A stretch of DNA of 64,000 nt from Ilumatobacteraceae bacterium (GCA_049433365.1 JBMTET010000005.1:1108-65107), one strand, 5' to 3'; shown: positions 11,420 to 62,504, counted from the stretch's first letter. Notes: generated by a model from the sequence alone, not told the origin. Numbers and translations are program-made.

Positions 11420-11421
11420 AC

Positions 11422-13631: not shown

Positions 13632-13641
13632 CCTGACGTGC

Positions 13642-13923: not shown

Positions 13924-13939
13924 CCGGGATACGACCCGC

Positions 13940-16532: not shown

Positions 16533-16542
16533 GGCGCGATCC

Positions 16543-17217: not shown

Positions 17218-17222
17218 CGAGC

Positions 17223-19345: not shown

Positions 19346-19348
19346 GTA

Positions 19349-19606: not shown

Positions 19607-19669
19607 AAGGATTCAGTCTGAAGATCGGCGCACTGCAAAAACCGATGAATTAAGCGCTAGATTCGGCTC

Positions 19670-20101: not shown

Positions 20102-20137
20102 CCGGCTCGGCCGGGTCACACCGACCCCGGTAGTTGG

Positions 20138-20164
20138 TTAGCAGTCTCATCGGTAGAGTGCTAA
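20138..20164 (+). promoter_or_regulatory. CIRCE operator (HrcA binding site) upstream of groEL
   Basis: TTAGCAGTC-N9-GAGTGCTAA versus consensus TTAGCACTC-N9-GAGTGCTAA (one mismatch). Lies 49 nt upstream of the groEL ATG; AAGGAG RBS at 20201-20206. Confidence 0.8.
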
Positions 20165-20209
20165 CCCGCGATACCCCCTGATATTCACGTTTGACATCCC
20201 AAGGAGTGA

Positions 20210-21835
<1,626 letters not shown>

Positions 21836-35260: not shown

Positions 35261-35264
35261 GACG

Positions 35265-38387: not shown

Positions 38388-39088
38388 GAATCGAGCGTTC
38401 CCCGCAACAGGGCTTCGGCGATGCGCATGTCGAGTGGCGTGTCGACGTCGAGGGAGCTCTCGTGGTCCATGACGAAACAACGTGGTTGCGGTGCAACGAC
38501 GGAGTTGTATCGGCGAATGTCCCCGGCTCGGGAGACGTATATCGCACCGTTGGCCCGGAAGTAACCGGGCAACTTCTGGCGCGGGGCTTCGAGCGTGGCG
38601 AGATCGCGGATGGGTTCGACCGCCCCGTCGGCATCGATCGTGAACGACTTCAGCGGATGGTGATCGCACTCGCACACGGAAATGACGCTGTGCGATGCAC
38701 CGGTGGCGGCATTCGCCTGCCGGAACATTTTGATGGCTTGCGTGAGGTGTTCGTGCGTGCGCAGCGGAGACGTCGGTTGCAAAGTGACGACGATCGTGTC
38801 GTCGGCGGCACCGAGAACGTCGAGTGCGTGCAATACCGCATCGACCGTCGGCGACGAATCGGTGGCAAGGTGCGCGGGGCGATCAACGACGCCGACGTCA
38901 CGTCGCCGCGCATGATCGGCAATCGTCGGATGGTCGGTCGTGACGACGATTTCGGTGACGCCAGCCGCTGCGACCGCACAGTCAATGGCAAGATCGAGCA
39001 GCGTCGTTCCGGCAAGAGGCGCGACGTTCTTCAGCGGAACGCCCTTGGACCCACCGCGGGCCGGGATGACGGCGATGCAACGCGACAT
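38384..39088 (-). CDS. neuA: N-acylneuraminate (NulO) cytidylyltransferase
   Basis: IAVIPARGGSKGVPLKNV and LQPTSPLRT motifs. Confidence 0.85.
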   Translation of the reverse strand: MSRCIAVIPARGGSKGVPLKNVAPLAGTTLLDLAIDCAVAAAGVTEIVVTTDHPTIADHARRRDVGVVDRPAHLATDSSPTVDAVLHALDVLGAADDTIVVTLQPTSPLRTHEHLTQAIKMFRQANAATGASHSVISVCECDHHPLKSFTIDADGAVEPIRDLATLEAPRQKLPGYFRANGAIYVSRAGDIRRYNSVVAPQPRCFVMDHESSLDVDTPLDMRIAEALLRGTLDS

Positions 39089-39090
39089 GC

Positions 39091-40209
39091 CTACACCCGA
39101 CGGAAGATTTTTTGGTGGGAGATGGCCCACGTGCGGTCATCGTGCACGGCATCGAGGAAGCGTTCGGCACTGCGACCGTCACCGAACATCGTCGACGGCT
39201 GCCGTACGAGTGACCGGGCATGGGTGATACCGGAGGCGATCGCGGATGCATCGGCAGCGACATCGACGATGAGCGGGGAAGTGTTGCGACCGCGCTGCCG
39301 CGTGCCGACGTTGACGGCAGGCGTGCCGTAGACACCGGCCTCGCGCACGCCCGAACTCGAATTGCCGACGATGTAGCGCGCGTGCTTCAGCAGAGTTTGG
39401 AAGTACTCGAAGCGGATCGACGGGATGACGCGATACCGAGCCCTGCCGCGCAGGGACTCAATTCGCCGGAGAATTTCGGCACTTCCGGCATCGTTGTTGG
39501 GATACACGGCAACGAAGTTGTCGCCCGACGCATCGGTGGCGGCCAGCAACTCGCCGACTTGGCGACCCATGTCGTCGACCTCGGTCGTCACGGGATGGAA
39601 TGCGAGAAGTGCGTACTCGGCGAACGGGATTTCGTAATAACGAAGGACCTCGTCGAGCGGCGGAAGATCGGCGCCGAGCATCACGTCGACCTCGGGCGAC
39701 CCGATAACGAAGATGCTGCTCGGTTGCTCGCCGAGTTGGAGCAATACGTCGCGGGCGGCATCGTTGGCAACGAAGTGCACGTGGGAAAGCTTCGACACGG
39801 CGTGCCGCATGAGCTCGTCGACGGTTCCGGAGAATTCGCCGCCTTCGACGTGCCCGACGAGAACGTTGTTCAGCGCACCTACGATGGCGCCGGCCAAAGC
39901 TTCGACGCGATCGCCGTGCACGACGATCATGTCGGGCTTCCACTCGCGCACGATCGTGCCGAGGCCCTCGACCGTGCGGGCGAGAATCGTGTCCATCGGT
40001 GATCCGTCGGCGTCATTGCCGAACGTGCGCACGTTGGTGAAACCGGCCCGGGTGATTTCAATTTCGGTGCGCCCGTAGCGGTCGATGAGGTGCATCCCCG
40101 TGGCGACGATGAGATGCTTGACGTCGGGTGCCGTGGAGACGGCGCGCAGGAGCGGTTTGAGTTTGCCGAATTCCGCGCGAGTGGCGGTGAGAAACAGGAG
40201 GCGCTTCAC
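39091..40209 (-). CDS. neuC: UDP-N-acetylglucosamine 2-epimerase (hydrolysing type)
   Basis: TATRAEFGKLKPL, VHGDRVEALAGAI, HVEGGEFSGTVDE. GTG 40209 overlaps the neuB stop. Confidence 0.85.
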   Translation of the reverse strand: MKRLLFLTATRAEFGKLKPLLRAVSTAPDVKHLIVATGMHLIDRYGRTEIEITRAGFTNVRTFGNDADGSPMDTILARTVEGLGTIVREWKPDMIVVHGDRVEALAGAIVGALNNVLVGHVEGGEFSGTVDELMRHAVSKLSHVHFVANDAARDVLLQLGEQPSSIFVIGSPEVDVMLGADLPPLDEVLRYYEIPFAEYALLAFHPVTTEVDDMGRQVGELLAATDASGDNFVAVYPNNDAGSAEILRRIESLRGRARYRVIPSIRFEYFQTLLKHARYIVGNSSSGVREAGVYGTPAVNVGTRQRGRNTSPLIVDVAADASAIASGITHARSLVRQPSTMFGDGRSAERFLDAVHDDRTWAISHQKIFRRV

Positions 40210-41246
40210 TCGCCGATGTGATCCCGGCGCAGCTGCGTGTTGCGCGCAATCCGCGTGGTAGCGCGCTTGCCGAGCACGTGGGGGAAGTCGACGGCAAGCA
40301 ACTCGCCCGTACCCGGACGCTTCACCCACACGTTCGAGTAGTCGAAGCGCTCACCCGGTTCGATGTCGCGAATCGACACGACGGACGCATAAGCAAAATC
40401 GATGGTGGGCTGCTCCTCGGGCAGAATCGACTTGCTGCCACCACTCGCCGAATGCACGGCCCGGCTCGCCTGCACGAGTTCGGCAAGGTCGCCGGGATCC
40501 ATCGACACCTCGATGTCGGGCCCGGGCCAGGTGCGGTCGGACGTGAAATGACGCTCGAGGATCGACGCACCAAGGGCAACCGACGCGATGCACGTCCAGT
40601 TGGTGAGCGTGTGATCGCTCAATCCGAGAACCGCGTCGGAGAACGCGCGGCGCAGTTCGGCAATCGCCCCCAGTCGCACCTTGTCGTACGGGGTCGGGTA
40701 CATCGACGTGACGTGCAGGAGCGCATACGGCACGTTGTGGCGCCGGAAGATGTCGACGGACGGGGCAATCGACGCGACGTCGTTCATCCCGGTGCTCATG
40801 ATGACCGGCTTGCCGTACTTGGCGATGTGTTCCACGAGCGGATAGTTGTTGCACTCGCCGGAGCCGATCTTGTACGCGGCAACGTCCATCGACTCGAGTC
40901 GCTCGGCTGCGGCACGCGAAAAGGGCGTCGACAGAAAGATGAGCCCCTTGGACTCGACGTAATGCTTGACGGTGCGTTCCTCGTCTTCCGACAGTGCGCA
41001 GCGTTCCATGATGTCCCAAATCGATTCGCTGGCGTTGCCGGGAATGACGTCGTTGGGAATCATTTCGTCGTCGATGACGTGCGATTGGAACTTCACGCAC
41101 TCGCATCCCGCAGCCGCGGCGTCGTCAACCATGCGCAACGCCTTGGCGATGTCACCTTCGTGGTTGATGCCGATTTCGGCAATGACGAGGGGAGGATGGT
41201 CAGGGCCGACGAGACGACCGGAAATGTTCAATTCGGGCACGGACAT
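40206..41246 (-). CDS. neuB: N-acetylneuraminate/NulO synthase (PEP-dependent), with SAF domain
   Basis: PLVIAEIGINHEGD, KFQSH, LSDHT, and C-terminal ASVVSIRDIEPGERF...KRPGTG. ATG 41246 shares 1 nt with the upstream stop. Confidence 0.9.
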   Translation of the reverse strand: MSVPELNISGRLVGPDHPPLVIAEIGINHEGDIAKALRMVDDAAAAGCECVKFQSHVIDDEMIPNDVIPGNASESIWDIMERCALSEDEERTVKHYVESKGLIFLSTPFSRAAAERLESMDVAAYKIGSGECNNYPLVEHIAKYGKPVIMSTGMNDVASIAPSVDIFRRHNVPYALLHVTSMYPTPYDKVRLGAIAELRRAFSDAVLGLSDHTLTNWTCIASVALGASILERHFTSDRTWPGPDIEVSMDPGDLAELVQASRAVHSASGGSKSILPEEQPTIDFAYASVVSIRDIEPGERFDYSNVWVKRPGTGELLAVDFPHVLGKRATTRIARNTQLRRDHIGE

Positions 41247-41743
41247 CACCTTACGGAACCGCTTCGGGCGGCGATGAGAGCGTCGGCGAACTCGCGAATC
41301 GCGCCTCGCCCACCGGGCTTCGTGAGCACCATGTCGGCAACTGCGATTGCGGTCGGATGCGAATCGGCCGGCACCACCGCAAGCCCGGCGTGTCGCAGGC
41401 ACTCGACGTCGTTGACGTCGTTTCCCATGTAGGCGCACTCGCCGGCATCGACCCCTTTCTTCGTCAGCCACTGCCGGAAAATCGGCAGTTTGTCGTCGAT
41501 GCCCTGGTGCACTTCGAGCGACAACTTGCGCGCCCGGGCCGACACGACGGGATTCGGTTCCTTCGAAATGATGACGAGATGAATCCCGGCGGAGCGGAGA
41601 AACTCGATTGCCATGCCGTCACTGCGGTCGCAGAACACGAACTCTTCACCGGACTGCGAGACGAGCACGCGGTTGTCGGTGAACACGCCGTCAAAGTCGA
41701 AGACAACGGCACGGATTCCGGCAAGCGAAGCCGCGGACGTCAT
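41246..41743 (-). CDS. HAD-IIIA phosphatase of the KdsC (Kdo-8-P / Kdn-9-P phosphatase) family
   Basis: VVFDFDGVFTDN (DxD nucleophile motif), GMAIEFLRSAGI, YMGNDVNDVECL. Confidence 0.8.
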   Translation of the reverse strand: MTSAASLAGIRAVVFDFDGVFTDNRVLVSQSGEEFVFCDRSDGMAIEFLRSAGIHLVIISKEPNPVVSARARKLSLEVHQGIDDKLPIFRQWLTKKGVDAGECAYMGNDVNDVECLRHAGLAVVPADSHPTAIAVADMVLTKPGGRGAIREFADALIAARSGSVR

Positions 41744-42018
41744 CGCAGCAACCCCGATACCGCGCCTGTGAGAGTGGCGAGGGCCACGACGATTCCCAGC
41801 CCCACAGCGGTTCCGCCGATCGCGCACATTCCGAGCAACGTACCCAAGGCGCGAACACGGTTGGGGCGTTCGGCGGTGATTCGACCCTGCGCTACGGCAA
41901 CGGGCAGCGGACGAGTCCCGATGAGCGAGGATGCCCGTCGTGACGACGTACCACGCAGGCGATACGAAAAGACGAGTGCTCCGAGGGTGAGCACCGTGAC
42001 GATGAGGGCGCGGGCCAT
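41740..42018 (-). CDS. Small membrane protein, first ORF of the glycan operon
   Basis: 92 aa with two hydrophobic segments. Its stop overlaps the phosphatase ATG (ATGA). Coding status rests mainly on this coupling. Confidence 0.4.
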   Translation of the reverse strand: MARALIVTVLTLGALVFSYRLRGTSSRRASSLIGTRPLPVAVAQGRITAERPNRVRALGTLLGMCAIGGTAVGLGIVVALATLTGAVSGLLR

Positions 42019-50664: not shown

Positions 50665-51276
50665 TTAGCGACGATGCTGTCGTCGGGTTGACTTTCCCTG
50701 CGGAAGCATTCGACGTCGCTGCAATCTGTTGCGAAGGGGCGCGACGGCGAGACGTGACGCCAAGCCGATGAGCAGCGTAAAGATGAGTGCACGGCCCCAC
50801 AGCGGTATCGCCCCGAGCGTGGGCCCGACGATGACGTTGAAGGCGAGACTAACGGGGTAAATCCACAACAGTTCGGAAAAGAACCGACCGAACCGCGTGC
50901 GATGCGGTGTACTCGTTGTTTGCGAACGGAAGAACTGCTCTTCTCCTGCGGTGACCGTCACGCGCTCGGTGACGACGAACTGATCGAGTGCGCGGATCAG
51001 CCGTTCGCGGTCCTCACTTCGTTCCCATCGTCGCAGGTGCAGGGCATCAACGAAGCGAAACACCATGTGGTACTCGTCGGATTCGGTGCCCGGATGAAGA
51101 AGCGTGGCACCGAGACAACCGGGGAACGAGCGAACCGCATCAGCGAGAGTTTCGGATGCCGCGACGAACTCAGCTGAAGTCCCCGGTTTGATCGTTCTCG
51201 CAACCGTCACGGTGACGGCTCCGGCGGCGATTTGTGGAAGCTTTGCGGTGTCGAAAGACCCCGTCAATTCGGGCAT
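50665..51276 (-). CDS. ABM (antibiotic biosynthesis monooxygenase)-domain protein with C-terminal TM segments
   Basis: Ferredoxin-like ABM pattern (VTVARTIKPG...YHMVFRFVD...RRWERSEDR), then two hydrophobic helices. Confidence 0.6.
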   Translation of the reverse strand: MPELTGSFDTAKLPQIAAGAVTVTVARTIKPGTSAEFVAASETLADAVRSFPGCLGATLLHPGTESDEYHMVFRFVDALHLRRWERSEDRERLIRALDQFVVTERVTVTAGEEQFFRSQTTSTPHRTRFGRFFSELLWIYPVSLAFNVIVGPTLGAIPLWGRALIFTLLIGLASRLAVAPLRNRLQRRRMLPQGKSTRRQHRR

Positions 51277-51362
51277 GGTTTCACCGTACCCACCGTCGGT
51301 TCCGACGTGCGGAATGCCCGACTCGTAGACTGAGGAACGATCCTTGCGATCATGTGACCACG

Positions 51363-52481
51363 ATGACGACGAACATCCTCGATACCGGCATCAAAGTGGT
51401 GCGCAACGTGTCGGGCTTCACCGTCGGCAAGGGCTCAGTGTCCCAACTTGCGGGTTTTGTCGACGCTCGTAGGCGCCAGGCAGGCTCCGCACCGGCTGTT
51501 GCGGTGTTTCTCATCGATGAGTTTTTCCGGCAGCACCCCGACATCGTTGCACGACTGGGAGTCGGCGCCGACGATCTGGTGCGCTACGTTGCCGTGGCCG
51601 ACGAGCCGACGACCGATGCCATCGACGAGCTCACGGCCGACATTCGCCGCAACCTTGCGGATCTGCCGGTGACGATCGTCGGTGTTGGTGGTGGAACGAC
51701 GATGGACACCGCCAAGGCAGTCGCAAATCTGCTCACCAACGGTGGCGCCGCCGCCGACTATCAGGGATGGGACCTCGTGAAGGTTCCCGGGGTGCACAAG
51801 ATCGCGGTGCCCACCATTTCGGGAACGGGTGCGGAGGCGACTCGGACTTGCGTGATGACGAACAAAAAGACGGGTCTGAAGTTGGGAATGAACAGCGACT
51901 ACACCGTGTTCGACCAGATGGTTCTCGACCCGGATCTCACCGCGACTGTGCCGCGCGACCAGTACTTCTACACCGGTATGGATGCCTACATTCACTGCGT
52001 CGAGGCGTTGCGGGGGTCGTATCGCAATGCAGTCGGTGATGCATATTCGCGCGAAACCGTGAATCTCTGTCGCCAAGTGTTCCTCGGCGACGACATGATG
52101 TCCGATGAAGCCCGGGAAAAACTCATGGTAGCGTCGTATCTCGGGGGATGTGCAATCGCCACGAGCTACGTCGGCGTGGTGCACCCCTTTTCTGCCGGGC
52201 TCAGCGTGGTCCTCGGCTTGCACCACTGCATTGCCAACTGCATTGCGTTGAATGCACTGCAGGAGTTCTACCCGGAGGAGCACGCTGAGTTCCGCAGCAT
52301 GCTTGCTGCACAGAACGTTCCGCTACCAACCGGTGTGTGCAGCTCGCTGAGTGAACAGCAGTTTGCCCAGCTCGTCGCTGCGACCGTGGTGCACGCCAAG
52401 CCCCTGACGAACGCGCTCGGCCCGAATTTCCGTGACATCCTCACCGACGACAAGGTCGTCGAGATCTTCTCGAGGATGTAA
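51363..52481 (+). CDS. Iron-containing (family III) alcohol dehydrogenase-like oxidoreductase; KdnB-like candidate
   Basis: VGVGGGTTMDTAKAV, GMDAYIHCVEAL and VVHPFSAGLSVVLGLHHC metal ligand motifs. Start ATG 51363 (GTG 51354 is possible). Confidence 0.8.
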   Translation: MTTNILDTGIKVVRNVSGFTVGKGSVSQLAGFVDARRRQAGSAPAVAVFLIDEFFRQHPDIVARLGVGADDLVRYVAVADEPTTDAIDELTADIRRNLADLPVTIVGVGGGTTMDTAKAVANLLTNGGAAADYQGWDLVKVPGVHKIAVPTISGTGAEATRTCVMTNKKTGLKLGMNSDYTVFDQMVLDPDLTATVPRDQYFYTGMDAYIHCVEALRGSYRNAVGDAYSRETVNLCRQVFLGDDMMSDEAREKLMVASYLGGCAIATSYVGVVHPFSAGLSVVLGLHHCIANCIALNALQEFYPEEHAEFRSMLAAQNVPLPTGVCSSLSEQQFAQLVAATVVHAKPLTNALGPNFRDILTDDKVVEIFSRM

Positions 52482-53642
52482 GTGCCGGGCTACGAGGTCA
52501 TCGGCGACGAGGAACGAGCCGAAGTCGATTCGGTATTCGCTGCAGGAGGCGTGCTGTTCCGGCACGGCTTTGACGCCATTCGCGGCGGCAGTTACAAGGT
52601 GCGTGACTTCGAGGCTGCTTTTGCACGGCGAATGGGCGCGCCGCACGCGCTTGCCGTCACGTCGGGAACCGCGGCGTTACGCGTGGCGCTCGCTGCACTC
52701 GATCTGCAACCGGGTGACGAGGTGATCACGCAGAGCTTCACCTTCGTTGCAACGGTCGAGGCGATCATCGAGGCGCGAGCGGTGCCGGTGTGTTGCGAGA
52801 TCGATGCAACGCTGAACATGGATCCAGACGACCTCGAAAGTCGAATCACCCCCCGAACACGGGCGGTCATCGCCGTGCACATGTTGGGGACCCCCGCACG
52901 ACTCGACCGGATTGCCGACGTATGCAGGCGCCACGACGTGGTCCTCATCGAGGATGCCGCCTGGGGCTGCGGGGGCTCGTTCGCCGACGTGCCGCTCGGT
53001 CGCTGGGGGGCGATGGGAACGTACAGTTTCGATTTCGCCAAAACGATGACAACCGGCGAGGGAGGCATGATCGTGTTCTCCGATGCCGACGTGCATGCTC
53101 GCGCTGCTGCGTGGCACGACCACGGTCACGAGAACAATCCATCGGTACCCCGCTGGGAAGACACGCGCTCAGGAAGCGGTTTCAACTACCGAATGAGCGA
53201 GTTGCAGGGTGCGGTTGGTCTTGCGCAATTGAGGAAACTCGACGACGTCGTCGCTGCACAGCAGAGAAATCGTGCAGCAATGTGGGCGGCGATCCGAGAC
53301 CTCGGCGGCGTCGTACCGCGCGAGGTTCCCGCCGGTTCGGTGGAGACTGCCGATGCGCTCGTATTCGAAGTTGCCGATGCTGTGACCGCCCGACGCTGCC
53401 GTGATGCGCTCGTCGCGGCGGGAATGTCGACGAAGATACTCCCCGAAGCCGTCACGTGGCATTTTGCGGGAACGTGGACCCACATGCCCGAGTTGGTCGC
53501 ATCGCATGGCGATCTCGAGACCGCCTTCCCGCACTCGGCCGACCGATTGTCTCGCTGCGTATCCTTGCCGGTCGTGGTGAAAATGGGAGAAGACGTGCCC
53601 AGTCGTCTGCGCACCGCATTGCAGTCGGTGCTCAGGACGTAG
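52482..53642 (+). CDS. DegT/DnrJ/EryC1/StrS-family PLP aminotransferase; KdnA-like candidate
   Basis: MPGYEVIGDEE..., SGTAALRVAL, GDEVITQSFTFVATVEAI, and YSFDFAKTMTTGEGGMI (PLP Lys). GTG abuts the upstream TAA. Confidence 0.85.
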   Translation: MPGYEVIGDEERAEVDSVFAAGGVLFRHGFDAIRGGSYKVRDFEAAFARRMGAPHALAVTSGTAALRVALAALDLQPGDEVITQSFTFVATVEAIIEARAVPVCCEIDATLNMDPDDLESRITPRTRAVIAVHMLGTPARLDRIADVCRRHDVVLIEDAAWGCGGSFADVPLGRWGAMGTYSFDFAKTMTTGEGGMIVFSDADVHARAAAWHDHGHENNPSVPRWEDTRSGSGFNYRMSELQGAVGLAQLRKLDDVVAAQQRNRAAMWAAIRDLGGVVPREVPAGSVETADALVFEVADAVTARRCRDALVAAGMSTKILPEAVTWHFAGTWTHMPELVASHGDLETAFPHSADRLSRCVSLPVVVKMGEDVPSRLRTALQSVLRT

Positions 53643-53670
53643 CACCAACCCGTAGCGTGGGTGTCTCAAC

Positions 53671-54330
53671 ATGACCGCTGTGAGTGTGATCATCGCCGCG
53701 CACAACGAGGAGCGCTTCATCGGGCGATGCATCCGATCGCTGATGGCACAGAAGTTTCCGCGGGATCGCTTCGAAATCATCGTGGTGGACGACGGAAGCA
53801 CCGACAAGACTGCCGAAGTGACGACTTCGTTCGGCGACGCCGTCCGTCTGCTGCGCAACGAGTCGAATCGAGGACTGCCGGCATCATTGAATCGAGCGAT
53901 TCGTGAAGTGCGCTCTCCGTTCATCGTGCGTGTCGACGCCGACGACTACGTGAACGCCTCGTTCCTCGAGGTGCTCCACATGTTCCTCGCCGAAAATCCG
54001 ACCCTCGATGCTGTTGCCTGTGATTATTTGCTCGTGGACGATCGGGAGGAGGTTCTCGGCAGGCGCAACTGCATGGACGAGCCGATCGCCTGTGGCATCA
54101 TGTTTCGCACCGATCAGATGATCGATCTCGGCTTGTACGACGAGTCATTTCTGTTGCACGAGGACAGGGACCTGCGGGTACGGTTCCTCGAACAGCACGA
54201 GATCCACCGGATTCCGTTGCCGCTGTACCGCTACCGACGTCATGCCGACAACATCACCAACGACACGGATGCAATGCAACACCATTACCGGCGCCTCATC
54301 GACAAGCACGGCGACAAGGGGCGCTCGTGA
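53671..54330 (+). CDS. Family 2 glycosyltransferase (short)
   Basis: [21 protein letters not shown]...[12 protein letters not shown]...VDADD. Confidence 0.85.
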
Positions 54331-55397
54331 CCGGGCCGCGAATCACGCTCGGTTCCCGGACGCTCACGCGCGAGTCCCCGCCGTACGTCATCGCCGAGAT
54401 TGGCGTCAACCACGAAGGGTCAATTGACACTGCAAAGTTGCTCATCGAACTCGCCAAGGAGGGGGGTGCTGACGCGGCAAAATTCCAGACGTACAAGGCG
54501 GAGACACTCGCTTCAAAACACTCACCCGCTTACTGGGACACCACCAAGGAGCCGACACAAAGCCAGTACGAGCTCTTCCAAAAATACGATGCGTTCGGAC
54601 CTCGTGAATACGAGATCTTGGCGGAGCATTGTGCGCGTGTCGGCATCGACTTTGCATCGACACCGTTCGACGATGCCGCAGTCGATTTTCTGGCTCCGTT
54701 GATGTCGTTCTTCAAAGTCGCGTCGGCCGATCTGACGAACACCCCGCTTTTGCGTCGCGTCGCTCGTACCGGGAAGCCCGTCGTGCTGTCCACCGGTGCG
54801 TCAACGATGGAAGAGGTGGATTGGGCGGTGCGCACGCTGCAGGAAGCCGGCGCGCGGGACATTGCTCTGCTGCACTGCATCCTCAACTATCCGACGAGCA
54901 ACGAGAACGCCAATTTGAGGATGTTGCGCGACCTCGAGCGGAAGTTCCCCCGTTGTCTGCTCGGCTACTCGGATCACACCGTTCCGACACCGAGACTGAA
55001 CACCTTGCTTGCAGCGTGGTTGAGCGGTGCCGTCATCCTCGAGAAACACTTCACACACGACAAGTCGCTCCCGGGCAACGACCATTATCACGCCATGGAC
55101 GTCAACGAGTTGCGCGAGTTCACGCAACTCGTGCGAGAAATCGCACCGCTTCTCGGGGTGACCGACCGCAAGGAGCCATTGGAGAGCGAGCAAATCTCGC
55201 GCCTCAACGCCCGTCGCAGCATCGTCGTTGCCCGCGACCTGCCAACCGGTCATGTCATCGCCGAGTCGGACATCACGTACAAGCGACCAGGAACCGGTGT
55301 GAGTCCGATGTATTGGGACGATGTCGTCGGTTTGACGACTCGGCACGCACTCGAAGCCGATCACGTCCTTCAGTGGGACGACGTCGCCGATCGATGA
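54327..55397 (+). CDS. NeuB-family ulosonic/nonulosonic acid synthase, paralog 2
   Basis: [27 protein letters not shown], and C-terminal SAF-like [13 protein letters not shown]...YKRPGTG. GTG overlaps the upstream stop. Confidence 0.9.
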
Positions 55398-56089
55398 ACA
55401 CGGTTCTGGTCGTTCAGGCACGACTCGGGTCAACGCGTTTTCCCGGCAAGATGCTCGCGTCCCTCGGTGATCGACCATTGATCTTCTGGGTTCTGGATCG
55501 CGTTCTGCGATCCCGCGAGGTGACAGAGGTCGTTGTGGCGACGACCGATGCGCCCGCCGATGATCCGCTCGTCGCAGCGATTGCCGGTTATCCCGTTCGG
55601 GTGTTTCGGGGTTCCACCGACGACGTGCTCGGCCGATTCTCCGGTGCACTTGCGTCGGTGGATGCCGACCACGTCGTCCGCGTGTGCGCCGACAATCCGT
55701 TCGTGGATCCCGAGTGCATTGACGCACTGGTTCGCGACCACGTTCTCACCAAATCCGGGTATACGTTCAACCACCGGCCCCATGATGGCTGCGACTATGC
55801 CGACGGACTCGGAGCCGAAGCCATCGAACGCTCATTGTTCGATCGATTGAATCGTGAGGTCTCGCGCCGCGAACACAGAGAACACGTGACGCTGGCCATC
55901 GTCGACGGAACGATCGAAACGTCTCGTCACGGTATGCGCGCCCCCGAAGCGTTGCGGCATCCCGAGGTTCGACTTGACGTCGACACTCCCGAGGACCTCG
56001 AAAAGTTGCAGCGAATCGTCGATTCGGCGAACCTCACGCCGACGTCGACGGCGGATCAGTTCGTGACGGCAGCGCTGGCGTTTTCATGA
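55394..56089 (+). CDS. SpsF/FlmC-type cytidylyltransferase (CTP_transf_3-like)
   Basis: VLVVQARLGSTRFPGKMLASLGDRPLI and VVRVCADNPFVD. ATG 55394 overlaps the upstream stop; the ORF-track extension back to 54629 is rejected. Confidence 0.8.
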   Translation: MNTVLVVQARLGSTRFPGKMLASLGDRPLIFWVLDRVLRSREVTEVVVATTDAPADDPLVAAIAGYPVRVFRGSTDDVLGRFSGALASVDADHVVRVCADNPFVDPECIDALVRDHVLTKSGYTFNHRPHDGCDYADGLGAEAIERSLFDRLNREVSRREHREHVTLAIVDGTIETSRHGMRAPEALRHPEVRLDVDTPEDLEKLQRIVDSANLTPTSTADQFVTAALAFS

Positions 56090-57612
56090 CTCGCTGGTCG
56101 GCCGAGACACTGTTCGCCGCGGTCAAAGCGTGCGAATCCGACGCAGAATGGGTTTTGACGAGACTTGCGGATCCGATCACGGAGCTGAGTGGCCGGCCAA
56201 CGGATGTCCCGGCGGCCCGGCGACTCATCGGTCACTGGTTGATGCACGTGTCGCACCAGTTTCATGTTCTCGGCCGCGACACGAGCGACGGTCGGAACGA
56301 TTTTACGGTGCCGCTCCACGCCGAACACATGGACCACCATCGCTCGTACGTTGCCGATGCCGACTATCGCGTCGCACTGAACAGTGCCATCGCCGCGATT
56401 CGCAACGGTCGTGCGTCCACCATCCAGCTGCGGCCCGTTGAGCTGCGCAACGGCTCAACATCGTTGCGGTCCCGGTTGCGTCGCGCGATATTGACCCGTG
56501 CATCTGGAGGCGGTGAAGTGCTCATCACGCAGCCCTACCTCCGATTCGGAATTCGCGACACCCGCCGATTCATCGGGCACAGCAGCTCCTGGTCGCAATG
56601 GCAAGATCTTTCGTGCACGTCGGCTGCAACACCGCTCATCGAGCGCCGTCGTGCGCTCGCACGCGCCGTTGATGTACGTGACGAGCGCAGCGCACTACTG
56701 GTATTGGCGATACTTCTGTTGCCATCTGCAGTGATCGAAGGCAGGCGCGAGGTACTTGCGCAACTTGACAGGGCCTTGCCCATGCACCCGAAGATGGTTT
56801 TTTCGGCGAACGGCCTGCAATTCGTCACGGCGTTCCAGGTCTTGGCCGCAGAGGCAGAGTCGCGCGGAACTCGGGTGGGGATTCAGCAGCACGGCGGACA
56901 CTTCGGACTCGACTCGGTTCATGCCGGAGAAAATGTTGAGGTTGCCGCTGCCGATCGTTTCTACACATTCGGTTGGGTCGACGATCGGTCGAACGTGCGT
57001 CCTTTGCCGACGGCGTCGCCGTTGCGGGCCGACTCGGCGGACCGCCGCCGAATGCTCGTCATGAGCGTGGAGGCAAGCGACTCGATCTACCGGCTGCAGC
57101 CTTTTTGTTTGCCCGAACACGCACAGGTATGTTTCGCGATGACGCGCACGTTCCTCGACGAGCTCGGCGACTCGGCGGGATTCAACCCGGTCGTGCGTGC
57201 GGGGGAGCGGGAACACGCCCTCATCGGGGCCCCGGTGCCGCGCGACGACTTGCGCACGCCGGGAACCGTGTCGGCCTCGGCGTCCGGACTCGTCGTGCAC
57301 AACTACTTGGGCACGTCGTGGCTCGAAACCCTCGCAATGAACGTTCCGACACTGTGCATCGTTCCACCGAACATCCACGCGTTTCGCGCCGCCGCACAAC
57401 CGCATGTCGATGCTCTGAAAGCACACGGAGTCATTCACGACGATCCGCGGGCGGCCGCCCGGTTCGTGCGGTCGCTCGGCGGTGATGCTCGGGCGTGGTG
57501 GCGACAGGAGGATCTGCAGGCAGACCGTGCCCGCTTCGTCGCCACGTACGCGAACTACTCGGACGATTGGCTCGATCTCTGGCGCGAGGAGCTCACCGGC
57601 TTCGCCGAATGA
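56086..57612 (+). CDS. Uncharacterised LIC12162-like putative transferase
   Basis: 508 aa. C-terminal half has LVVHNYLGTSWLETLAMNVPTLCIV, resembling the STxGxE...G.P block of KpsS-like GT-B enzymes. ATG overlaps the upstream stop. Confidence 0.5.
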   Translation: MTRWSAETLFAAVKACESDAEWVLTRLADPITELSGRPTDVPAARRLIGHWLMHVSHQFHVLGRDTSDGRNDFTVPLHAEHMDHHRSYVADADYRVALNSAIAAIRNGRASTIQLRPVELRNGSTSLRSRLRRAILTRASGGGEVLITQPYLRFGIRDTRRFIGHSSSWSQWQDLSCTSAATPLIERRRALARAVDVRDERSALLVLAILLLPSAVIEGRREVLAQLDRALPMHPKMVFSANGLQFVTAFQVLAAEAESRGTRVGIQQHGGHFGLDSVHAGENVEVAAADRFYTFGWVDDRSNVRPLPTASPLRADSADRRRMLVMSVEASDSIYRLQPFCLPEHAQVCFAMTRTFLDELGDSAGFNPVVRAGEREHALIGAPVPRDDLRTPGTVSASASGLVVHNYLGTSWLETLAMNVPTLCIVPPNIHAFRAAAQPHVDALKAHGVIHDDPRAAARFVRSLGGDARAWWRQEDLQADRARFVATYANYSDDWLDLWREELTGFAE

Positions 57613-60157: not shown

Positions 60158-60649
60158 ATGTCGTTGTTCACCACCAAGATTTCCGGACTCACATCGGGGG
60201 ACGACATACTCTCGTCGCTCGCAGGGAAGGTGGTGCTCGTCGTCAACGTGGCATCGAAGTGCGGCCTCACGCCCCAGTACACGCAACTCGAGCAGCTGCA
60301 AAAAGACCATGCCGCGCAGGGTTTCAGCGTCCTCGGTGTGCCGTGCAACCAGTTCGGCGCCCAGGAACCGGGATCACCCGCCGACATCGCAACCTTCTGC
60401 TCGACGAACTACGGCGTGAGTTTCCCGCTCACCGAAAAAGTCGACGTGAACGGTCCCGGTCGGCACCCGCTGTACACCCAACTCGTCGACACCACCGACG
60501 CTGAGGGCCACGGCGGAGACATCCGTTGGAACTTCGAGAAGTTCCTCGTCTCGCGTGACGGTCGGGTCGTCGCACGGTTTGCGCCGATGACGGCCCCGGA
60601 TGCTCCCGAGGTGATCGAGGCCATCAGCCGCGAGCTGACTGCGAAGTGA
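60158..60649 (+). CDS. gpx: Glutathione peroxidase (Cys type)
   Basis: VNVASKCGLT, PCNQFGAQEP, WNFEKFLV. Confidence 0.9.
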   Translation: MSLFTTKISGLTSGDDILSSLAGKVVLVVNVASKCGLTPQYTQLEQLQKDHAAQGFSVLGVPCNQFGAQEPGSPADIATFCSTNYGVSFPLTEKVDVNGPGRHPLYTQLVDTTDAEGHGGDIRWNFEKFLVSRDGRVVARFAPMTAPDAPEVIEAISRELTAK

Positions 60650-61524
60650 CGACCGCGCCGGTTCGCGTCGCCGCCATCCAAATGGCGATGGCCGACGATG
60701 TGGCAGCGAACTGCGACACCGCCGAACGACTCGTGCGCGACGCTGCCGCGCAGGGTGCACGGGTCATTCTCCTTCCCGAACTATTCGAGGGGCACTATTT
60801 CTGCAAGGACCAGCGAGCCGTCGACTTGGCGCGGGCGAGACCACTGGAGGGCCATCCAACGATCGAGCGTTTCGCAAATGTTGCCCGGGAGGTCGGTGCG
60901 GTGTTGCCGCTCAGCGTGTACGAGCGCGACGGCAACGCCCTGTTCAACACGACCGTGATGGTGGATGCCGACGGACGGGTCATGGGCAAGTACCGCAAGT
61001 CGCACATTCCCGACGGTCCCGGATACTCGGAGAAGTTCTACTTTTCGCCCGGAGACACCGGCTTTCGGGTGTGGCCGACCGAATTCGGAATCGTCGGCCT
61101 GGCGATTTGTTGGGATCAGTGGTTTCCCGAAGCCGCGCGGGTGATGGCGTTGCTCGGCGCGGACCTGCTGCTGTATCCGACGGCAATAGGCAGCGAGCCG
61201 CAAAATCCGTCGTGGGATTCGAGTGGCCACTGGCAACGCGTCATGCAGGGCCATTCCGCGGCAAACGTCGTGCCCGTCGTTGCCGCCAACCGCATCGGTC
61301 ACGAGCGCGGACACCCGACGGAAATCACGTTTTACGGCTCGTCATTCATCACCGATGCGACCGGTACGAAGGTTGCCGAGGCGGGCCGCGCCGACGAAGC
61401 CGTGCTCGTTGCCGACGTCGACGTGGCAACCAATCGCGAGCTGCGCCTGTCATGGGGATTGTTCCGCGATCGACGGCCCGATTTGTACGGACCGCTGTTG
61501 CATCTCGGCGGTTCGGAATCGTGA
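60646..61524 (+). CDS. aguB: N-carbamoylputrescine amidase (nitrilase superfamily)
   Basis: VAAIQM, LPELF, KSHIPDGPGYSEKFYF, and AICWDQWFPE (catalytic Cys). Confidence 0.85.
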   Translation: MTTAPVRVAAIQMAMADDVAANCDTAERLVRDAAAQGARVILLPELFEGHYFCKDQRAVDLARARPLEGHPTIERFANVAREVGAVLPLSVYERDGNALFNTTVMVDADGRVMGKYRKSHIPDGPGYSEKFYFSPGDTGFRVWPTEFGIVGLAICWDQWFPEAARVMALLGADLLLYPTAIGSEPQNPSWDSSGHWQRVMQGHSAANVVPVVAANRIGHERGHPTEITFYGSSFITDATGTKVAEAGRADEAVLVADVDVATNRELRLSWGLFRDRRPDLYGPLLHLGGSES

Positions 61525-62504
61525 GAATGCCGGCGGAGTTCTCCGCCCACGAGCGAACCGGAATGTGTTGGCCCACGCGATCGGCCATTTATGCGGGCCG
61601 ATTCGACGAAGCCAAGCGCGCCCATGCGACAGTTGCGCGAACGATTTCCAGGTACGAACCCGTCACAATGATCGCCAACGAAGCGGATGCAGACGAAGCA
61701 GCCGACATGTGCGGTTCCGGTGTCGACGTCGTCACTGCACCGATTGACGATGCCTGGTTCCGGGATACCGGTCCGATCTACGTCACCGCCGGTAACGAGC
61801 GGATCGGTACGTATTGGCGGTTCAACGGTTGGGGCGGCAAGTTCGTACCGCATGACAACGATGCCCGCCTTGCTGCGACGTGGTTGAAGATGCGCGGCGA
61901 GAAGTGCGTCGATGTTGACATGGTTCTCGAAGGAGGATCGATCAACGTCGACGGTGAGGGTCTGCTCGTGACGACGGAGCAGTGCTTGTTGCATCCGAAC
62001 CGCAATCCGAAGATGGGTCGCGGTGAGATCGAGGCGTCGTTGCGCGAACGACTCGGATGCACCGAAGTCGTGTGGTTGCCTTTCGGGTTGTCACTCGACG
62101 ACGACACCGACGGTCACGTCGACAACGTGGCGGCGTTCATCGCCCCGGGGATCGTGATGATGCAGGGGTGCGACGATCCACGTGAAGAGGATTTTTCCCG
62201 TTGTGCCGCGAACATCGCTGCAGCCCGCGCCGCCGGCCTCACCGTGCACGAGATACCGGTTCTGCCGTTCGTTGACGTTGACGGCGCGAGGGTGTGCGTG
62301 CCGTACCTCAACTTCTACTTCGTCAACGGTGCAGTCGTCGTGCCGACGAGCGGACATCCCGCCGATACGGACATGCTCGCGCTCATCGGCGACACGATTC
62401 CGGACAGGGACGTCATCGGTCTCGGCGTGGGAACGATCCTCGCAATCGGCGGGGGAGGGATCCACTGCATCACGCAGCAAGTTCCCGCGGTGTCCTCCCG
62501 GTAG
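61521..62504 (+). CDS. aguA: Agmatine deiminase
   Basis: MPAEFSAHERT, FNGWGGKF, DGHVDN, and GGGIHCITQQ (catalytic Cys). GTG 61521 overlaps the aguB stop. Confidence 0.85.
   Translation: MRMPAEFSAHERTGMCWPTRSAIYAGRFDEAKRAHATVARTISRYEPVTMIANEADADEAADMCGSGVDVVTAPIDDAWFRDTGPIYVTAGNERIGTYWRFNGWGGKFVPHDNDARLAATWLKMRGEKCVDVDMVLEGGSINVDGEGLLVTTEQCLLHPNRNPKMGRGEIEASLRERLGCTEVVWLPFGLSLDDDTDGHVDNVAAFIAPGIVMMQGCDDPREEDFSRCAANIAAARAAGLTVHEIPVLPFVDVDGARVCVPYLNFYFVNGAVVVPTSGHPADTDMLALIGDTIPDRDVIGLGVGTILAIGGGGIHCITQQVPAVSSR

What the first reader, a model, noticed from the sequence alone, without database searches (positions are those of the whole stretch)
51363..53642. Abutting Fe-ADH-like oxidoreductase and DegT-type aminotransferase: KdnB/KdnA-like terminal amination of an ulosonic acid?
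The two genes are contiguous: TAA 52479-52481 is followed immediately by GTG 52482. In Shewanella oneidensis, an Fe-ADH-family oxidase (KdnB) and a DegT-family transaminase (KdnA) convert Kdo to 8-amino-3,8-dideoxy-Kdo (Kdo8N). Here the same enzyme pair sits in an operon with a NeuB-family synthase and a cytidylyltransferase, in a genome region that also encodes the full Kdo pathway. The dehydratase and N-acetyltransferase steps of the Leg/Pse pathways are absent. An oxidise-then-transaminate modification of a pre-formed Kdo or NulO (Kdo8N-like, or a 9-amino NulO) is therefore a plausible alternative. To my knowledge this has not been described in Gram-positives.
Basis: partly seen in the sequence, partly recalled or inferred. 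Interest (0 to 1): 0.7.

Follow-up and report, generated by a model that had tools for sequence, protein, structure and literature searches.

The report
Operon for an aminated sialic-like sugar
A freshwater actinobacterium carries true relatives of the two Shewanella enzymes that turn the sugar acid Kdo into amino-Kdo, but they belong to a separate, uncharacterised branch that sits inside a sialic-acid-type operon in several phyla, which suggests an unstudied route to an amino nine-carbon sugar acid.

Summary
An Fe-ADH gene (51363-52481) ends in TAA directly before the GTG of a DegT aminotransferase gene (52482-53642). They are the first two genes of a six-gene operon: kdnB-like, kdnA-like, short GT2, NeuB, CMP-transferase, GT-B-like transferase.

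Both enzymes are real KdnB/KdnA relatives. Against the PDB, KdnB (5k8c) scores 6e-100 versus 5e-27 for the next family. KdnA (5k8b) scores 1.5e-77 versus 3e-48. Reciprocal best hits hold and catalytic residues are intact.

The KdnB family has two clades. Clade I (Shewanella and others) is always kdnA-kdnB-kdsB without NeuB. Clade II, which contains the window, sits beside a NeuB synthase and an SpsF-like CMP-transferase in Actinomycetota, Verrucomicrobiota, Chlorobium, Pseudomonadota and Campylobacter concisus. The Desulfovibrio loci have the CMP-transferase but no adjacent NeuB.

The window has separate, self-sufficient Kdo and NeuC/NeuB/NeuA sets. The best reading is therefore a module for an aminated NeuB-derived nonulosonic acid, most likely aminated at the terminal carbon. 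Amination before the synthase step, and true Kdo8N synthesis, are not excluded.

No paper in the searched library describes this link. Automatic pipelines already transfer the KdnB name, probably over-specifically. I class it as a new variant of a known kind, interest about 0.6.

The parts
51277..51362 (.). Intergenic region of 86 bp between the divergent ABM-domain gene (50665-51276, minus strand) and kdnB-like; presumed promoter region of the operon
   Evidence: Gap of 86 bp. No E. coli-type sigma-70 match, which says little for an actinobacterium. The role is inferred from the divergent gene arrangement only.
51363..52481 (+). KdnB-like Fe-dependent alcohol oxidase/dehydrogenase, clade II (372 aa)
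   Evidence: Pfam Fe-ADH plus ADH_Fe_C. PDB 3rf7 4e-104 and 5k8c KdnB 6e-100, next family 5e-27. GGG109-111 and metal ligands D207/H211/H274/H288 present. Clade II in 192/200 bootstraps. Identical to NCBI MGA0064213.1.
52482..53642 (+). KdnA-like PLP aminotransferase (386 aa), sister group of Shewanella-type KdnA
   Evidence: Pfam DegT 1e-82. PDB 5k8b KdnA 1.5e-77, next 3e-48. Schiff-base K187 and D158 are invariant in 37 aligned sequences. The IIa group and the IIa + type I group are each recovered in 200/200 bootstraps.
53671..54330 (+). Short GT-A (GT2) protein of 219 aa, conserved inside the biosynthetic block; proposed NDP-sugar hydrolase that frees the sugar for NeuB (inferred), or an ordinary glycosyltransferase
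   Evidence: Pfam Glycos_transf_2 1e-30. PDB 6p61 1e-86. 49-72% identical across phyla, and never found together with a 522-aa protein that carries a PseG-like hydrolase domain.
54327..55397 (+). NeuB-family ulosonic acid synthase with SAF domain (356 aa); subtype not assigned
   Evidence: Pfam NeuB 4.8e-76 plus SAF. TIGR03569 325 bits, below the 400 cutoff; PseI 243, below 340. Best PDB match is B. subtilis SpsE 1vli at 1e-51, then N. meningitidis NeuB at 1e-42.
55394..56089 (+). SpsF-like CMP-sugar-acid synthetase (231 aa), not a KdsB
   Evidence: Pfam CTP_transf_3 7.6e-27. KdsB models match only the N-terminal 115 residues, 76 bits against a cutoff of 193. PDB 6oew 4e-21. JGI names a cluster member SpsF.
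56086..57612 (+). LIC12162/TIGR04331-family protein (508 aa), distant GT-B-fold transferase; candidate transferase for the activated sugar
   Evidence: TIGR04331 143 bits, below the 225 cutoff. AlphaFold2 mean pLDDT 90.7. Best Foldseek PDB matches are all GT-B enzymes (SPY/OGT, MGD1, MurG, CalG3) with TMq only 0.33-0.38. The family sits beside neu genes in Herbaspirillum (PMC6679464). The gene is present or absent among relatives.

Best explanation
The six genes form a self-contained module that makes, aminates, CMP-activates and probably transfers a nine-carbon ulosonic acid for a cell-envelope glycan.

Proposed steps:
1. A free aldose is provided, possibly released from a nucleotide sugar by the short GT2 (inferred).
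2. NeuB condenses the aldose with PEP to give a nonulosonic acid. The family assignment is shown; the substrate is unknown, and Kdn from mannose is the simplest case.
3. The KdnB-like enzyme oxidises a hydroxyl of the free sugar acid to a carbonyl. By analogy with C8 of Kdo, this is most likely the terminal primary C9-OH.
4. The KdnA-like PLP enzyme transaminates the carbonyl to an amine.
5. The SpsF-like enzyme makes the CMP-sugar.
6. The GT-B-like protein transfers it.

Shown: family memberships, intact catalytic residues, operon structure, the separate NeuB-linked clade and the cross-phylum conservation. Inferred: the substrate, the position oxidised, the order of steps and the GT2 role.

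My estimates: about 0.75 that the pair serves the NeuB pathway rather than Kdo, and about 0.5 for amination of the pre-formed acid.
For: - **KdnB/KdnA kinship.** PDB searches. Reciprocal best hits. Seven KdnB-family-only residues (W136, R161, D179, T181, Q200, F202, Y303) are among 13 conserved in both clades but absent from generic Fe-ADHs. This suggests a similar class of substrate.
- **Known chemistry of the relatives.** Shewanella KdnB/KdnA act on free Kdo before CMP activation (Gattis 2013, as summarised in PMC4402001).
- **Context split.** In 80 loci, clade I is kdnA-kdnB-kdsB without NeuB. Clade II has an aminotransferase plus an SpsF-like CMP-transferase, with NeuB adjacent in 17 loci from several phyla, and never kdsB. 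The split is supported in 192-200 of 200 bootstraps.
- **Operon coupling.** Junctions are 0, +28, -4, -4 and -4 bp.
- **Fixed position.** The operon sits at the same chromosomal site in Ilumatobacteraceae.
- **Other sets are self-sufficient.** The window's other ulosonic-acid sets each have their own cytidylyltransferase: KdsB-1 with KdsA; KdsB-2 with an aldolase; a NeuA-like enzyme with NeuC/NeuB_2. The operon's CMP-transferase is therefore free to serve the operon's own product.
- **Pocket changes.** Two bulky clade I residues near the metal site region (Y278, W348) are A and L in clade II. This is compatible with a larger substrate, but it is suggestive only.
Against: - No biochemical data exist for any clade II enzyme.
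- Most clade II clusters use an unrelated DegT aminotransferase, whose best PDB hits are 7b0d and QdtB rather than KdnA. KdnA-type chemistry is therefore not a constant of the clade.
- A PseG-like hydrolase in those clusters recalls Pse/Leg logic, where amination comes before the synthase.
- Desulfovibrio-type clusters have no adjacent NeuB.
- The operon has no recognisable source of ManNAc or mannose and no acyltransferase for the new amine.
- The organism does make Kdo, so Kdo is available as a substrate.
- I know of no natural 9-amino nonulosonic acid (own knowledge; the literature search found nothing useful).
Confidence: 0.55

Rival explanations
1. Amination before the synthase. The KdnB-like enzyme and the aminotransferase act on the six-carbon precursor, either a free hexose/hexosamine or an NDP-sugar. 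The amino sugar is then released, condensed with PEP by NeuB and CMP-activated. This resembles the Pse/Leg pathways but without 6-deoxygenation. The product is a 7-amino or 9-amino nonulosonic acid.
For: - NCBIfam's best (sub-threshold) hits for the window aminotransferase are PseC (194 bits) and LegC-family (191 bits).
- Clade II clusters in C. concisus, Chlorobium, Methylococcaceae and Desulfovibrio carry a PseG-like NDP-sugar hydrolase fusion (141 bits, E 5e-41) in place of the short GT2. The pathway therefore starts from a nucleotide sugar.
- Those clusters use NDP-sugar-type or inosose-type DegT enzymes.
Against: - Both window enzymes are closest to enzymes that act on a free sugar acid.
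- Residues specific to the KdnB family are conserved in both clades.
- To my knowledge no Fe-ADH-family enzyme is known to oxidise an NDP-sugar (own knowledge).
- Gene order puts kdnB and kdnA first, but order is weak evidence either way.
Confidence: 0.25
2. Genuine Kdo8N synthesis. The pair converts Kdo, made by the KdsD/KdsA set 35 kb upstream, to 8-amino-Kdo, which one of the two KdsB paralogues activates. Adjacency to NeuB reflects co-regulation of envelope sugars, not a shared pathway.
For: - The window encodes KdsA, KpsF/KdsD and two true KdsB proteins, plus a KdsC-family phosphatase.
- The only characterised relatives use Kdo.
- JGI's pipeline names close homologues Kdo 8-oxidase.
Against: - In none of about 35 clade II loci is kdsB adjacent, while in clade I it almost always is.
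- The clades are separated with 96-100% bootstrap support.
- KdsB-2 has its own partner, a DmpG-like aldolase, so there is no orphan Kdo-type cytidylyltransferase.
- The operon is translationally coupled to NeuB and a non-KdsB CMP-transferase.
Confidence: 0.12
3. The pair works on something other than a sugar acid, such as an inosose/aminocyclitol or a small hydroxy compound whose amine is later attached to the glycan.
For: - Fe-ADH and DegT families are broad.
- Sub-threshold NCBIfam hits include sulfoacetaldehyde, lactaldehyde and phosphonoacetaldehyde reductases.
- Clade II partners in other phyla resemble a 'glutamine-scyllo-inositol transaminase' entry (7b0d).
Against: - The specific and reciprocal similarity to KdnB/KdnA is very strong: 338 and 264 bits, against 98 and 168 bits for the next families.
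- All generic Fe-ADH equivalog models score far below their cutoffs.
- The operon has no cyclase, phosphonate or other small-molecule genes.
Confidence: 0.05

Closest known systems
[quoted passage not shown]
   Same: Same sharply bounded subfamily of Fe-ADHs. PDB match 6e-100. 44-47% identity to Shewanella orthologues. Same metal ligands and GGG motif. Shares 13 residues conserved in both clades and absent from generic Fe-ADHs. Encoded next to a partner aminotransferase and a CMP-transferase.
   Different: Belongs to the sister clade (clade II, 192/200 bootstraps). Nine clade-discriminating positions, including P275/A278 next to ligand H274 and K346-P347-L348. Linked to NeuB and an SpsF-like CMP-transferase instead of kdsB. 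Gene order is kdnB then kdnA, not kdnA then kdnB.
KdnA (8-amino-3,8-dideoxy-alpha-D-manno-octulosonate transaminase, EC 2.6.1.109; PDB 5k8b) of Shewanella oneidensis
   Same: Best solved relative (1.5e-77; 36-40% identity to Shewanella orthologues). Catalytic Lys and Asp conserved. Groups with type I KdnA against all other DegT enzymes in 200/200 bootstraps.
   Different: Forms its own sister group, restricted to Ilumatobacteraceae/Actinomycetota and Chthoniobacterales, with 17 discriminating positions. Works beside a clade II KdnB that in most other lineages is partnered with an unrelated DegT.
Bacterial nonulosonic acid clusters (NeuC/NeuB/NeuA; Leg and Pse pathways; B. subtilis sps legionaminic acid operon, PMC7439481)
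   Same: A NeuB-family synthase (closest solved: SpsE) and a CTP_transf_3 CMP-synthetase (named SpsF-like) sit in one operon with a DegT aminotransferase and transferases.
   Different: No 4,6-dehydratase, no N-acetyltransferase and no Epimerase_2-type hydrolysing epimerase in the operon. An Fe-ADH-type oxidase is present instead. The synthase falls below the NeuB/LegI and PseI equivalog cutoffs.
Leptospira/Herbaspirillum O-antigen NulO loci (LIC12162 / TIGR04331 family; PDB 6p61 glycosyltransferase; PDB 6oew cytidylyltransferase)
   Same: The last operon gene belongs to the LIC12162 family, which lies beside neu genes in Herbaspirillum (PMC6679464). The short GT2 is 1e-86 to 6p61, and the CMP-transferase is closest to 6oew.
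   Different: Whether these loci contain a KdnB-like gene could not be checked. The source organisms of 6p61 and 6oew are from my memory only and were not verified here.

Membership tests
KdnB family (Kdo 8-oxidase, Fe-ADH subfamily cd08184) | Fe-ADH fold with NAD-binding glycine motif and the Asp/His/His/His metal site | tested here: met
   PF00465 plus PF25137. GGG109-111, D207, H211, H274 and H288 present, with the spacing typical of the family.
KdnB family (Kdo 8-oxidase, Fe-ADH subfamily cd08184) | Specific sequence kinship to characterised KdnB rather than to other Fe-ADHs, and reciprocal best hit | tested here: met
   5k8c 338 bits against 98 bits for the next family. In 1.84 billion representatives only 117 clusters reach E<=1e-30. 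Shewanella KdnB hits only 51369-52478 in the window. The family separates from generic Fe-ADHs in 200/200 bootstraps.
KdnB family (Kdo 8-oxidase, Fe-ADH subfamily cd08184) | Falls in the same clade as the biochemically characterised enzyme | tested here: not met
   The window protein is in clade II. Shewanella enzymes are in clade I (clade II 192/200, clade I 200/200).
KdnB family (Kdo 8-oxidase, Fe-ADH subfamily cd08184) | Genomic linkage kdnA-kdnB-kdsB (Kdo-type cytidylyltransferase) | tested here: not met
   The neighbour is an SpsF-like CMP-transferase (KdsB models 76 bits, cutoff 193) plus NeuB. The kdsB genes lie 35-49 kb away.
KdnB family (Kdo 8-oxidase, Fe-ADH subfamily cd08184) | Oxidises C8-OH of free Kdo | not testable with these tools
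   Needs an enzyme assay. The structure papers (PMC5095702, PMC3610993) are not held.
KdnA family (Kdo8N transaminase, DegT/AAT fold type I) | DegT-family fold with PLP-binding Lys (an aminotransferase, not a dehydratase) | tested here: met
   PF01041 1e-82. K187 and D158 conserved in 37 of 37 aligned sequences.
KdnA family (Kdo8N transaminase, DegT/AAT fold type I) | Closest to characterised KdnA rather than to NDP-sugar or inosose aminotransferases | tested here: met
   5k8b 264 bits against 168 (8gyh), 164 (perosamine synthase) and 131 (BtrS 2c7t). Groups with type I KdnA in 200/200 bootstraps. Reciprocal hit confirmed.
KdnA family (Kdo8N transaminase, DegT/AAT fold type I) | Same clade as the characterised enzyme, and activity on 8-oxo-Kdo | tested here: inconclusive
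   Forms a sister group to type I KdnA, each recovered in 200/200 bootstraps. Activity is not testable here.
NeuB/NeuA-type nonulosonic acid biosynthesis cluster | NeuB-family PEP-condensing synthase plus CMP-NulO synthetase in one operon | tested here: met
   NeuB 4.8e-76 plus SAF. CTP_transf_3 7.6e-27. The two genes overlap by 4 bp.
NeuB/NeuA-type nonulosonic acid biosynthesis cluster | Assignable synthase subtype (Neu5Ac/Leg versus Pse) | tested here: inconclusive
   TIGR03569 325 bits, below the 400 cutoff. TIGR03586 243, below 340. Closest solved structure is SpsE.
NeuB/NeuA-type nonulosonic acid biosynthesis cluster | Enzyme that supplies the free six-carbon sugar (NeuC/LegG/PseG type) | tested here: not met
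   None in the operon. Related clusters have a PseG-like domain where this one has the short GT2, so a hydrolase role for the GT2 is only a hypothesis.
Legionaminic/pseudaminic acid pathway | NDP-sugar 4,6-dehydratase and N-acetyltransferase steps | tested here: not met
   Absent from 51363-57612. The only 4,6-dehydratase in the window is a CDP-glucose type at 35265-36422 (449 bits, cutoff 278).
Aminocyclitol (BtrS/NeoA-type) amination | Aminotransferase and dehydrogenase cluster with inosose enzymes; a cyclase is nearby | tested here: not met
   BtrS-type structures score about half of KdnA. The operon has no DOIS/DHQS-like cyclase.

The most novel reading that the evidence does not exclude
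Clade II KdnB-like oxidases define a second, unstudied way of putting nitrogen on sialic-acid-like sugars. Instead of the NDP-4-keto-6-deoxy route of the Leg/Pse pathways, a free nine-carbon acid is oxidised at its terminal carbon by an Fe-ADH-type enzyme and then transaminated. The product would be a 9-amino-9-deoxy nonulosonic acid (for example Kdn9N or Neu5Ac9N), a sugar not known from nature. It would be displayed on the envelope of abundant freshwater actinobacteria and, in variant form, on human-associated Campylobacter concisus and Desulfovibrio. A side prediction is that a small GT-A protein acts as an NDP-sugar hydrolase.
Probability: 0.35. Interest if true: 0.8.

Novelty: new variant of a known kind. 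Interest (0 to 1): 0.62.

Why it matters
- **A new sugar.** Nonulosonic acids shape how bacteria are seen by phages, grazers and immune systems. Their diversity has so far been explained by three pathway types (Neu, Leg, Pse). A KdnB/KdnA-type oxidise-then-transaminate step inside NeuB operons would add a fourth logic and predicts a sugar nobody has looked for.
- **It is testable.** The module is a stable trait of Ilumatobacteraceae, a family of freshwater Acidimicrobiia. It also occurs in culturable, medically relevant bacteria (C. concisus, D. desulfuricans), so no work on the uncultured host is needed.
- **An annotation problem.** Pipelines already transfer the name 'Kdo 8-oxidase' to proteins of a clade whose context argues for a different substrate.
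- **An unusual window.** It holds four separate sugar-acid synthase/cytidylyltransferase sets, including a true Kdo set, which is unusual for an actinobacterium.

Tried and rejected
- **Primary papers.** I tried to read the KdnA/KdnB papers for substrate-contact residues (10.1021/acs.biochem.6b00439, 10.1074/jbc.M113.453324, PMC3610993, PMC5095702). None is held. Residue-level comparison is therefore limited to conservation patterns.
- **Literature searches.** Searches for KdnB/KdnA/Kdo8N, for Fe-ADH together with NulO terms, for 8-, 9- or tri-amino NulOs, and for ulosonic acid with oxidase and transaminase found no description of this association. Several returned only noise (kDNA, aminoquinolines).
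- **Locus search.** A 24-sequence alignment was too divergent for the search for related loci. An 8-sequence alignment worked.
- **Bootstrap.** The first run timed out. The second gave a numerical warning. Only the corrected run is used.
- **Rejected: the operon's CMP-transferase serves the NeuC/NeuB_2 cluster.** That cluster has its own NeuA/PseF-like gene at 38384-39130, which I first missed because of an overlapping spurious ORF.
- **Rejected: the extra KdsB-2 is an orphan for Kdo8N.** It is paired with a DmpG-like aldolase.
- **Rejected: the minus-strand cluster at 30-41 kb is a Leg pathway.** It is a CDP-glucose/CDP-deoxyhexose set plus a NeuC/NeuB set.
- **Promoter and terminator scan.** Uninformative.
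- **LIC12162 protein.** The sequence search of the PDB found nothing. The fold search gave only distant GT-B matches.
Full report
**1. The observation**

The window has 62.8% G+C. An exact protein match places it in an Ilumatobacteraceae (Acidimicrobiia, Actinomycetota) metagenome-assembled genome (MGA0064213.1).

At 52479-52481 a TAA is followed at once by GTG 52482. The second ORF ends at TAG 53640-53642. The longest ORF for the first gene begins at GTG 51234. The ATG at 51363 gives the 372-aa protein that NCBI and all homologues agree on.

Gene 1 is an Fe-ADH and gene 2 a DegT-family enzyme. They open a six-gene operon:

| Gene | Coordinates |
|---|---|
| kdnB-like | 51363-52481 |
| kdnA-like | 52482-53642 |
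| short GT2 (219 aa) | 53671-54330 |
| NeuB+SAF | 54327-55397 |
| CTP_transf_3 cytidylyltransferase | 55394-56089 |
| LIC12162/TIGR04331-family protein | 56086-57612 |

The junctions are 0, +28, -4, -4 and -4 bp. The operon is flanked by a divergent ABM gene and a convergent thymidine kinase gene.

**2. Are they really KdnB/KdnA-like?**

Yes, and specifically so.

- **KdnB.** Against all PDB sequences, the Fe-ADH matches 3rf7 (4e-104) and S. oneidensis KdnB 5k8c (6e-100). The next family reaches only 5e-27.
- **KdnA.** The aminotransferase matches S. oneidensis KdnA 5k8b at 1.5e-77. The next hit is 3e-48, and BtrS-type inosose aminotransferases are near 1e-37.
- **Curated models.** No NCBIfam equivalog model for other Fe-ADH functions comes near its cutoff.
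- **Family size.** In a search of 1.84 billion representative proteins, only 117 clusters reach E<=1e-30. Full-length members score 200-480 bits, and scores then fall to generic Fe-ADHs.
- **Reciprocal hits.** Shewanella KdnA and KdnB ORFs searched back against the window hit only these two genes.
- **Catalytic residues.** KdnB has GGG109-111 and D207/H211/H274/H288. KdnA has K187 and D158.

**3. Two clades with two contexts**

I fetched 80 loci from named genomes with an alignment of family members. I mapped their neighbours by tblastn.

| | Clade I | Clade II |
|---|---|---|
| Lineages | Shewanella, Desulfobacteraceae and relatives, Sulfurivirga, some Verrucomicrobia; a Flavobacteriaceae variant | Ilumatobacteraceae/Actinomycetota, Chthoniobacterales, Chlorobium, Acidiferrobacteraceae, Thioglobus, Methylococcaceae, Alphaproteobacteria, Campylobacter concisus, Desulfovibrio and relatives |
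| Gene order | kdnA-kdnB-kdsB | kdnB, aminotransferase, accessory gene, NeuB, SpsF-like CMP-transferase |
| NeuB | never | adjacent in 17 loci |
| kdsB | almost always adjacent | never adjacent |
| KdnB identity to the window | 43-48% | 48-78% |

Neighbour-joining trees rooted on generic Fe-ADHs recover the two context types as two clades. Support is 192/200 for clade II and 200/200 for clade I.

Thirteen residues are conserved in both clades but absent from generic Fe-ADHs. They include W136, R161, D179, T181, Q200, F202 and Y303.

Nine positions separate the clades. Among them are P275 and A278 beside ligand H274, and K346-P347-L348. The bulky Y278 and W348 of clade I are A and L in clade II. 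This is compatible with a roomier pocket, but I could not map it onto coordinates.

**4. The aminotransferase partner**

The window's enzyme groups with its Ilumatobacteraceae and Chthoniobacterales relatives (72-77% identical). This group is sister to the Shewanella-type KdnA clade. Each group, and the two together against all other DegT sequences, is recovered in 200/200 bootstraps.

All other clade II clusters use an unrelated DegT. Its best solved relatives are 7b0d and QdtB, and KdnA is not among the top hits.

The window therefore represents a sub-type ('IIa') in which both partners are KdnB/KdnA-like. The Chthoniobacterales copy sits in an unrelated neighbourhood and probably arrived by transfer. 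In Ilumatobacteraceae the operon always lies between UPF0182/ABM and tdk-PhyH-cdd, so there it is a stable lineage trait. The last gene (LIC12162 family) and the upstream DUF6311 gene come and go.

**5. The other operon genes**

- **NeuB.** It scores below both the NeuB/LegI and PseI equivalog cutoffs. Its closest solved relative is B. subtilis SpsE (1e-51), ahead of meningococcal NeuB (1e-42).
- **CMP-transferase.** It is not a KdsB: 76 bits over the N-terminal half only, against a cutoff of 193. JGI names a member of its cluster SpsF.
- **Short GT2.** It has a very close solved homologue, 6p61 (1e-86), and is 49-72% identical across phyla. That is unusually high for a glycosyltransferase with a variable acceptor.
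  - It is present in 13 clade II loci. A 522-aa protein is present in 14 others. No locus has both.
  - The 522-aa protein has a cytidylyltransferase-like N-terminus and a PseG-like NDP-sugar hydrolase domain (TIGR03590 141 bits, E 5e-41, cutoff 153.6).
  - I therefore propose, as an inference only, that the short GT2 plays the same part: releasing a free aldose from a nucleotide sugar for NeuB. The operon otherwise lacks any NeuC/LegG/PseG-type enzyme.
- **LIC12162-family protein.** It has no sequence match in the PDB. It models with pLDDT 90.7 and resembles only GT-B glycosyltransferases, at low TM-scores of 0.33-0.38. The family lies beside neu genes in Herbaspirillum (PMC6679464). A role as the transferase for the activated sugar is plausible but unproven.

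**6. Which sugar acid?**

The window carries four synthase/cytidylyltransferase sets.

| Set | Genes and coordinates |
|---|---|
| 1 | DmpG-like aldolase 2503-4158 (-), true KdsB 1763-2662 (-) |
| 2 | KdsB 13940-14695, KpsF/KdsD 14692-15684, KdsA 15681-16532 (+), all above curated cutoffs |
| 3 | KdsC-family phosphatase 41246-41827, NeuB_2 40206-41471, true NeuC 39091-40329, NeuA/PseF-like cytidylyltransferase 38384-39130 (all -) |
| 4 | the operon of the finding, 51363-57612 (+) |

Each of the first three sets is self-sufficient. The operon's CMP-transferase is therefore not needed elsewhere, and no Kdo-type transferase is left over for a Kdo8N branch. Together with the clade/context split, this makes the NeuB product (or its precursor) the likely substrate, rather than Kdo. 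I put this at about 0.75.

**7. Mechanism**

In Shewanella, KdnB oxidises C8-OH of free Kdo and KdnA transaminates the aldehyde, both before CMP activation (Gattis 2013, as summarised in PMC4402001). By analogy, the best-supported scheme here has five steps:

1. A free aldose is supplied.
2. NeuB makes a nonulosonic acid.
3. The terminal C9-OH is oxidised.
4. The carbonyl is transaminated.
5. The product is CMP-activated and transferred.

With GDP-mannose as the source, the product would be 9-amino-9-deoxy-Kdn.

Family membership, catalytic competence, operon coupling and conserved context are shown. The substrate, the position oxidised, the order of steps and the GT2 role are inferred.

**8. 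Rivals**

- **Pre-synthase amination.** The PseG-like hydrolase and the NDP-sugar-type aminotransferases of other clade II clusters keep this rival alive (about 0.25).
- **True Kdo8N synthesis.** About 0.12.
- **A non-sugar-acid substrate.** About 0.05.

Weak points of the main reading:
- There are no biochemical data for clade II.
- The operon has no acyltransferase for the new amine.
- Desulfovibrio clusters have no adjacent NeuB.
- No 9-amino nonulosonic acid is known from nature, as far as I know.

**9. Comparison with the known, and novelty**

The pair belongs to the KdnB and KdnA families by sequence, catalytic residues and reciprocity. It fails two features of the characterised system: it is in a different clade, and it is not linked to kdsB. 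It should therefore not be annotated as Kdo 8-oxidase and Kdo8N transaminase, although JGI's pipeline already does so for close homologues. NCBI uses generic names.

It shares the synthase and the CMP step with Neu/Leg/Pse clusters, but lacks their dehydratase, acetyltransferase and epimerase steps.

I found no paper in the library that links an Fe-ADH to a NeuB cluster. The library is incomplete, and the two primary KdnA/KdnB papers could not be read.

I rate it a new variant of a known kind. It is a known two-enzyme amination device recruited, as a distinct and widespread clade, to a different sugar-acid pathway.

**10. Verdict**

The homology is firmly established. The NulO option is favoured over Kdo. 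The chemistry is untested.
- Interest is 0.62. A specialist would find the NeuB-linked KdnB clade and the predicted amino-nonulosonic acid worth testing, and culturable hosts exist for doing so.

Noticed in passing
window 13940-19324 (+): A true Kdo set in an actinobacterium. KdsB (290 bits, cutoff 193), KpsF/KdsD (252, cutoff 204) and KdsA (408, cutoff 242) are followed by three genes with weak or no family hits: 16543-17217 (weak GT8), 17223-18449 (no hit) and 18461-19324 (DUF268-like). Kdo is unusual in Actinomycetota, and the acceptor glycan is unknown.
   Followed up: partly
window 144-4158: A second true KdsB (1763-2662, minus strand; NF009905 264 bits, cutoff 255) lies directly downstream of a DmpG-type pyruvate aldolase (2503-4158, minus strand; PDB 3dxi 2e-41). 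It is also next to a TIGR04326-like 'surface carbohydrate biosynthesis' protein (144-1784, plus strand). This may be a fourth, aldolase-based route to a CMP-activated keto-deoxy sugar acid.
   Followed up: partly
window 38384-41827 (-): A complete sialic-acid-type set: KdsC/YrbI-family phosphatase (110 bits, cutoff 107), NeuB_2, a true hydrolysing NeuC (369, cutoff 236) and a NeuA/PseF-like cytidylyltransferase. The phosphatase hints at a 9-phosphate route. The cytidylyltransferase ORF is hidden under a longer spurious ORF (37158-38675).
   Followed up: partly
window 32015-37129 (-): A CDP-hexose set: a Glc-1-P cytidylyltransferase-like gene (271 bits, cutoff 300), CDP-glucose 4,6-dehydratase (449, cutoff 278), a 3,5-epimerase-like gene, an SDR, GT2s and a weak DegT-like gene. 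It probably makes a CDP-deoxyhexose for the same envelope glycan region.
   Followed up: no
L015/L016 (Campylobacter concisus) 10007-21037; also L010, L011, L022, L026-L028, L032-L035: A variant clade II cluster. It has kdnB-like, a SAM methyltransferase, an unrelated DegT, a 522-aa cytidylyltransferase-like/PseG-like fusion, a CMP-transferase, NeuB, a radical SAM/SPASM protein, a hexapeptide acyltransferase and a LIC12162-like protein. The Desulfovibrio versions lack an adjacent NeuB. The same methyltransferase is inserted between kdnB and kdnA in L002 and L007.
   Followed up: partly
L040, L042, L044, L053, L054, L056-L058, L061, L065, L069, L071, L078-L080 (Flavobacteriaceae): A clade I variant in which kdsB lies about 0.1-1.5 kb upstream of kdnB, but no KdnA-like gene was detected next to it at my thresholds (only L062 has one). 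Either a different aminotransferase is used, or kdnA lies elsewhere.
   Followed up: no
L036 (Candidatus Roizmanbacteria) 10001-10801: A KdnB-like gene 60% identical to the window's, cut by the end of a CPR (Patescibacteria) contig. CPR bacteria are not expected to make Kdo. If the genome lacks kdsA, this would argue against Kdo as the clade II substrate.
   Followed up: no
window 56086-57612: NCBI annotates this gene as a 434-aa hypothetical protein (MGA0064218.1). Homologues and the ORF that overlaps the upstream stop by 4 bp give 508 aa. The deposited start codon is probably too far downstream.
   Followed up: partly
window 7947-13631 (+): Carotenoid-type genes: a polyprenyl synthetase, two amine-oxidase-type desaturases and a phytoene/squalene synthase. 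They are unrelated to the finding.
   Followed up: no
window 60646-62504 (+): A carbon-nitrogen hydrolase followed by a PAD_porph (agmatine deiminase-type) gene, which looks like the agmatine to putrescine pair. Both are syntenic in related Ilumatobacteraceae (L003).
   Followed up: no
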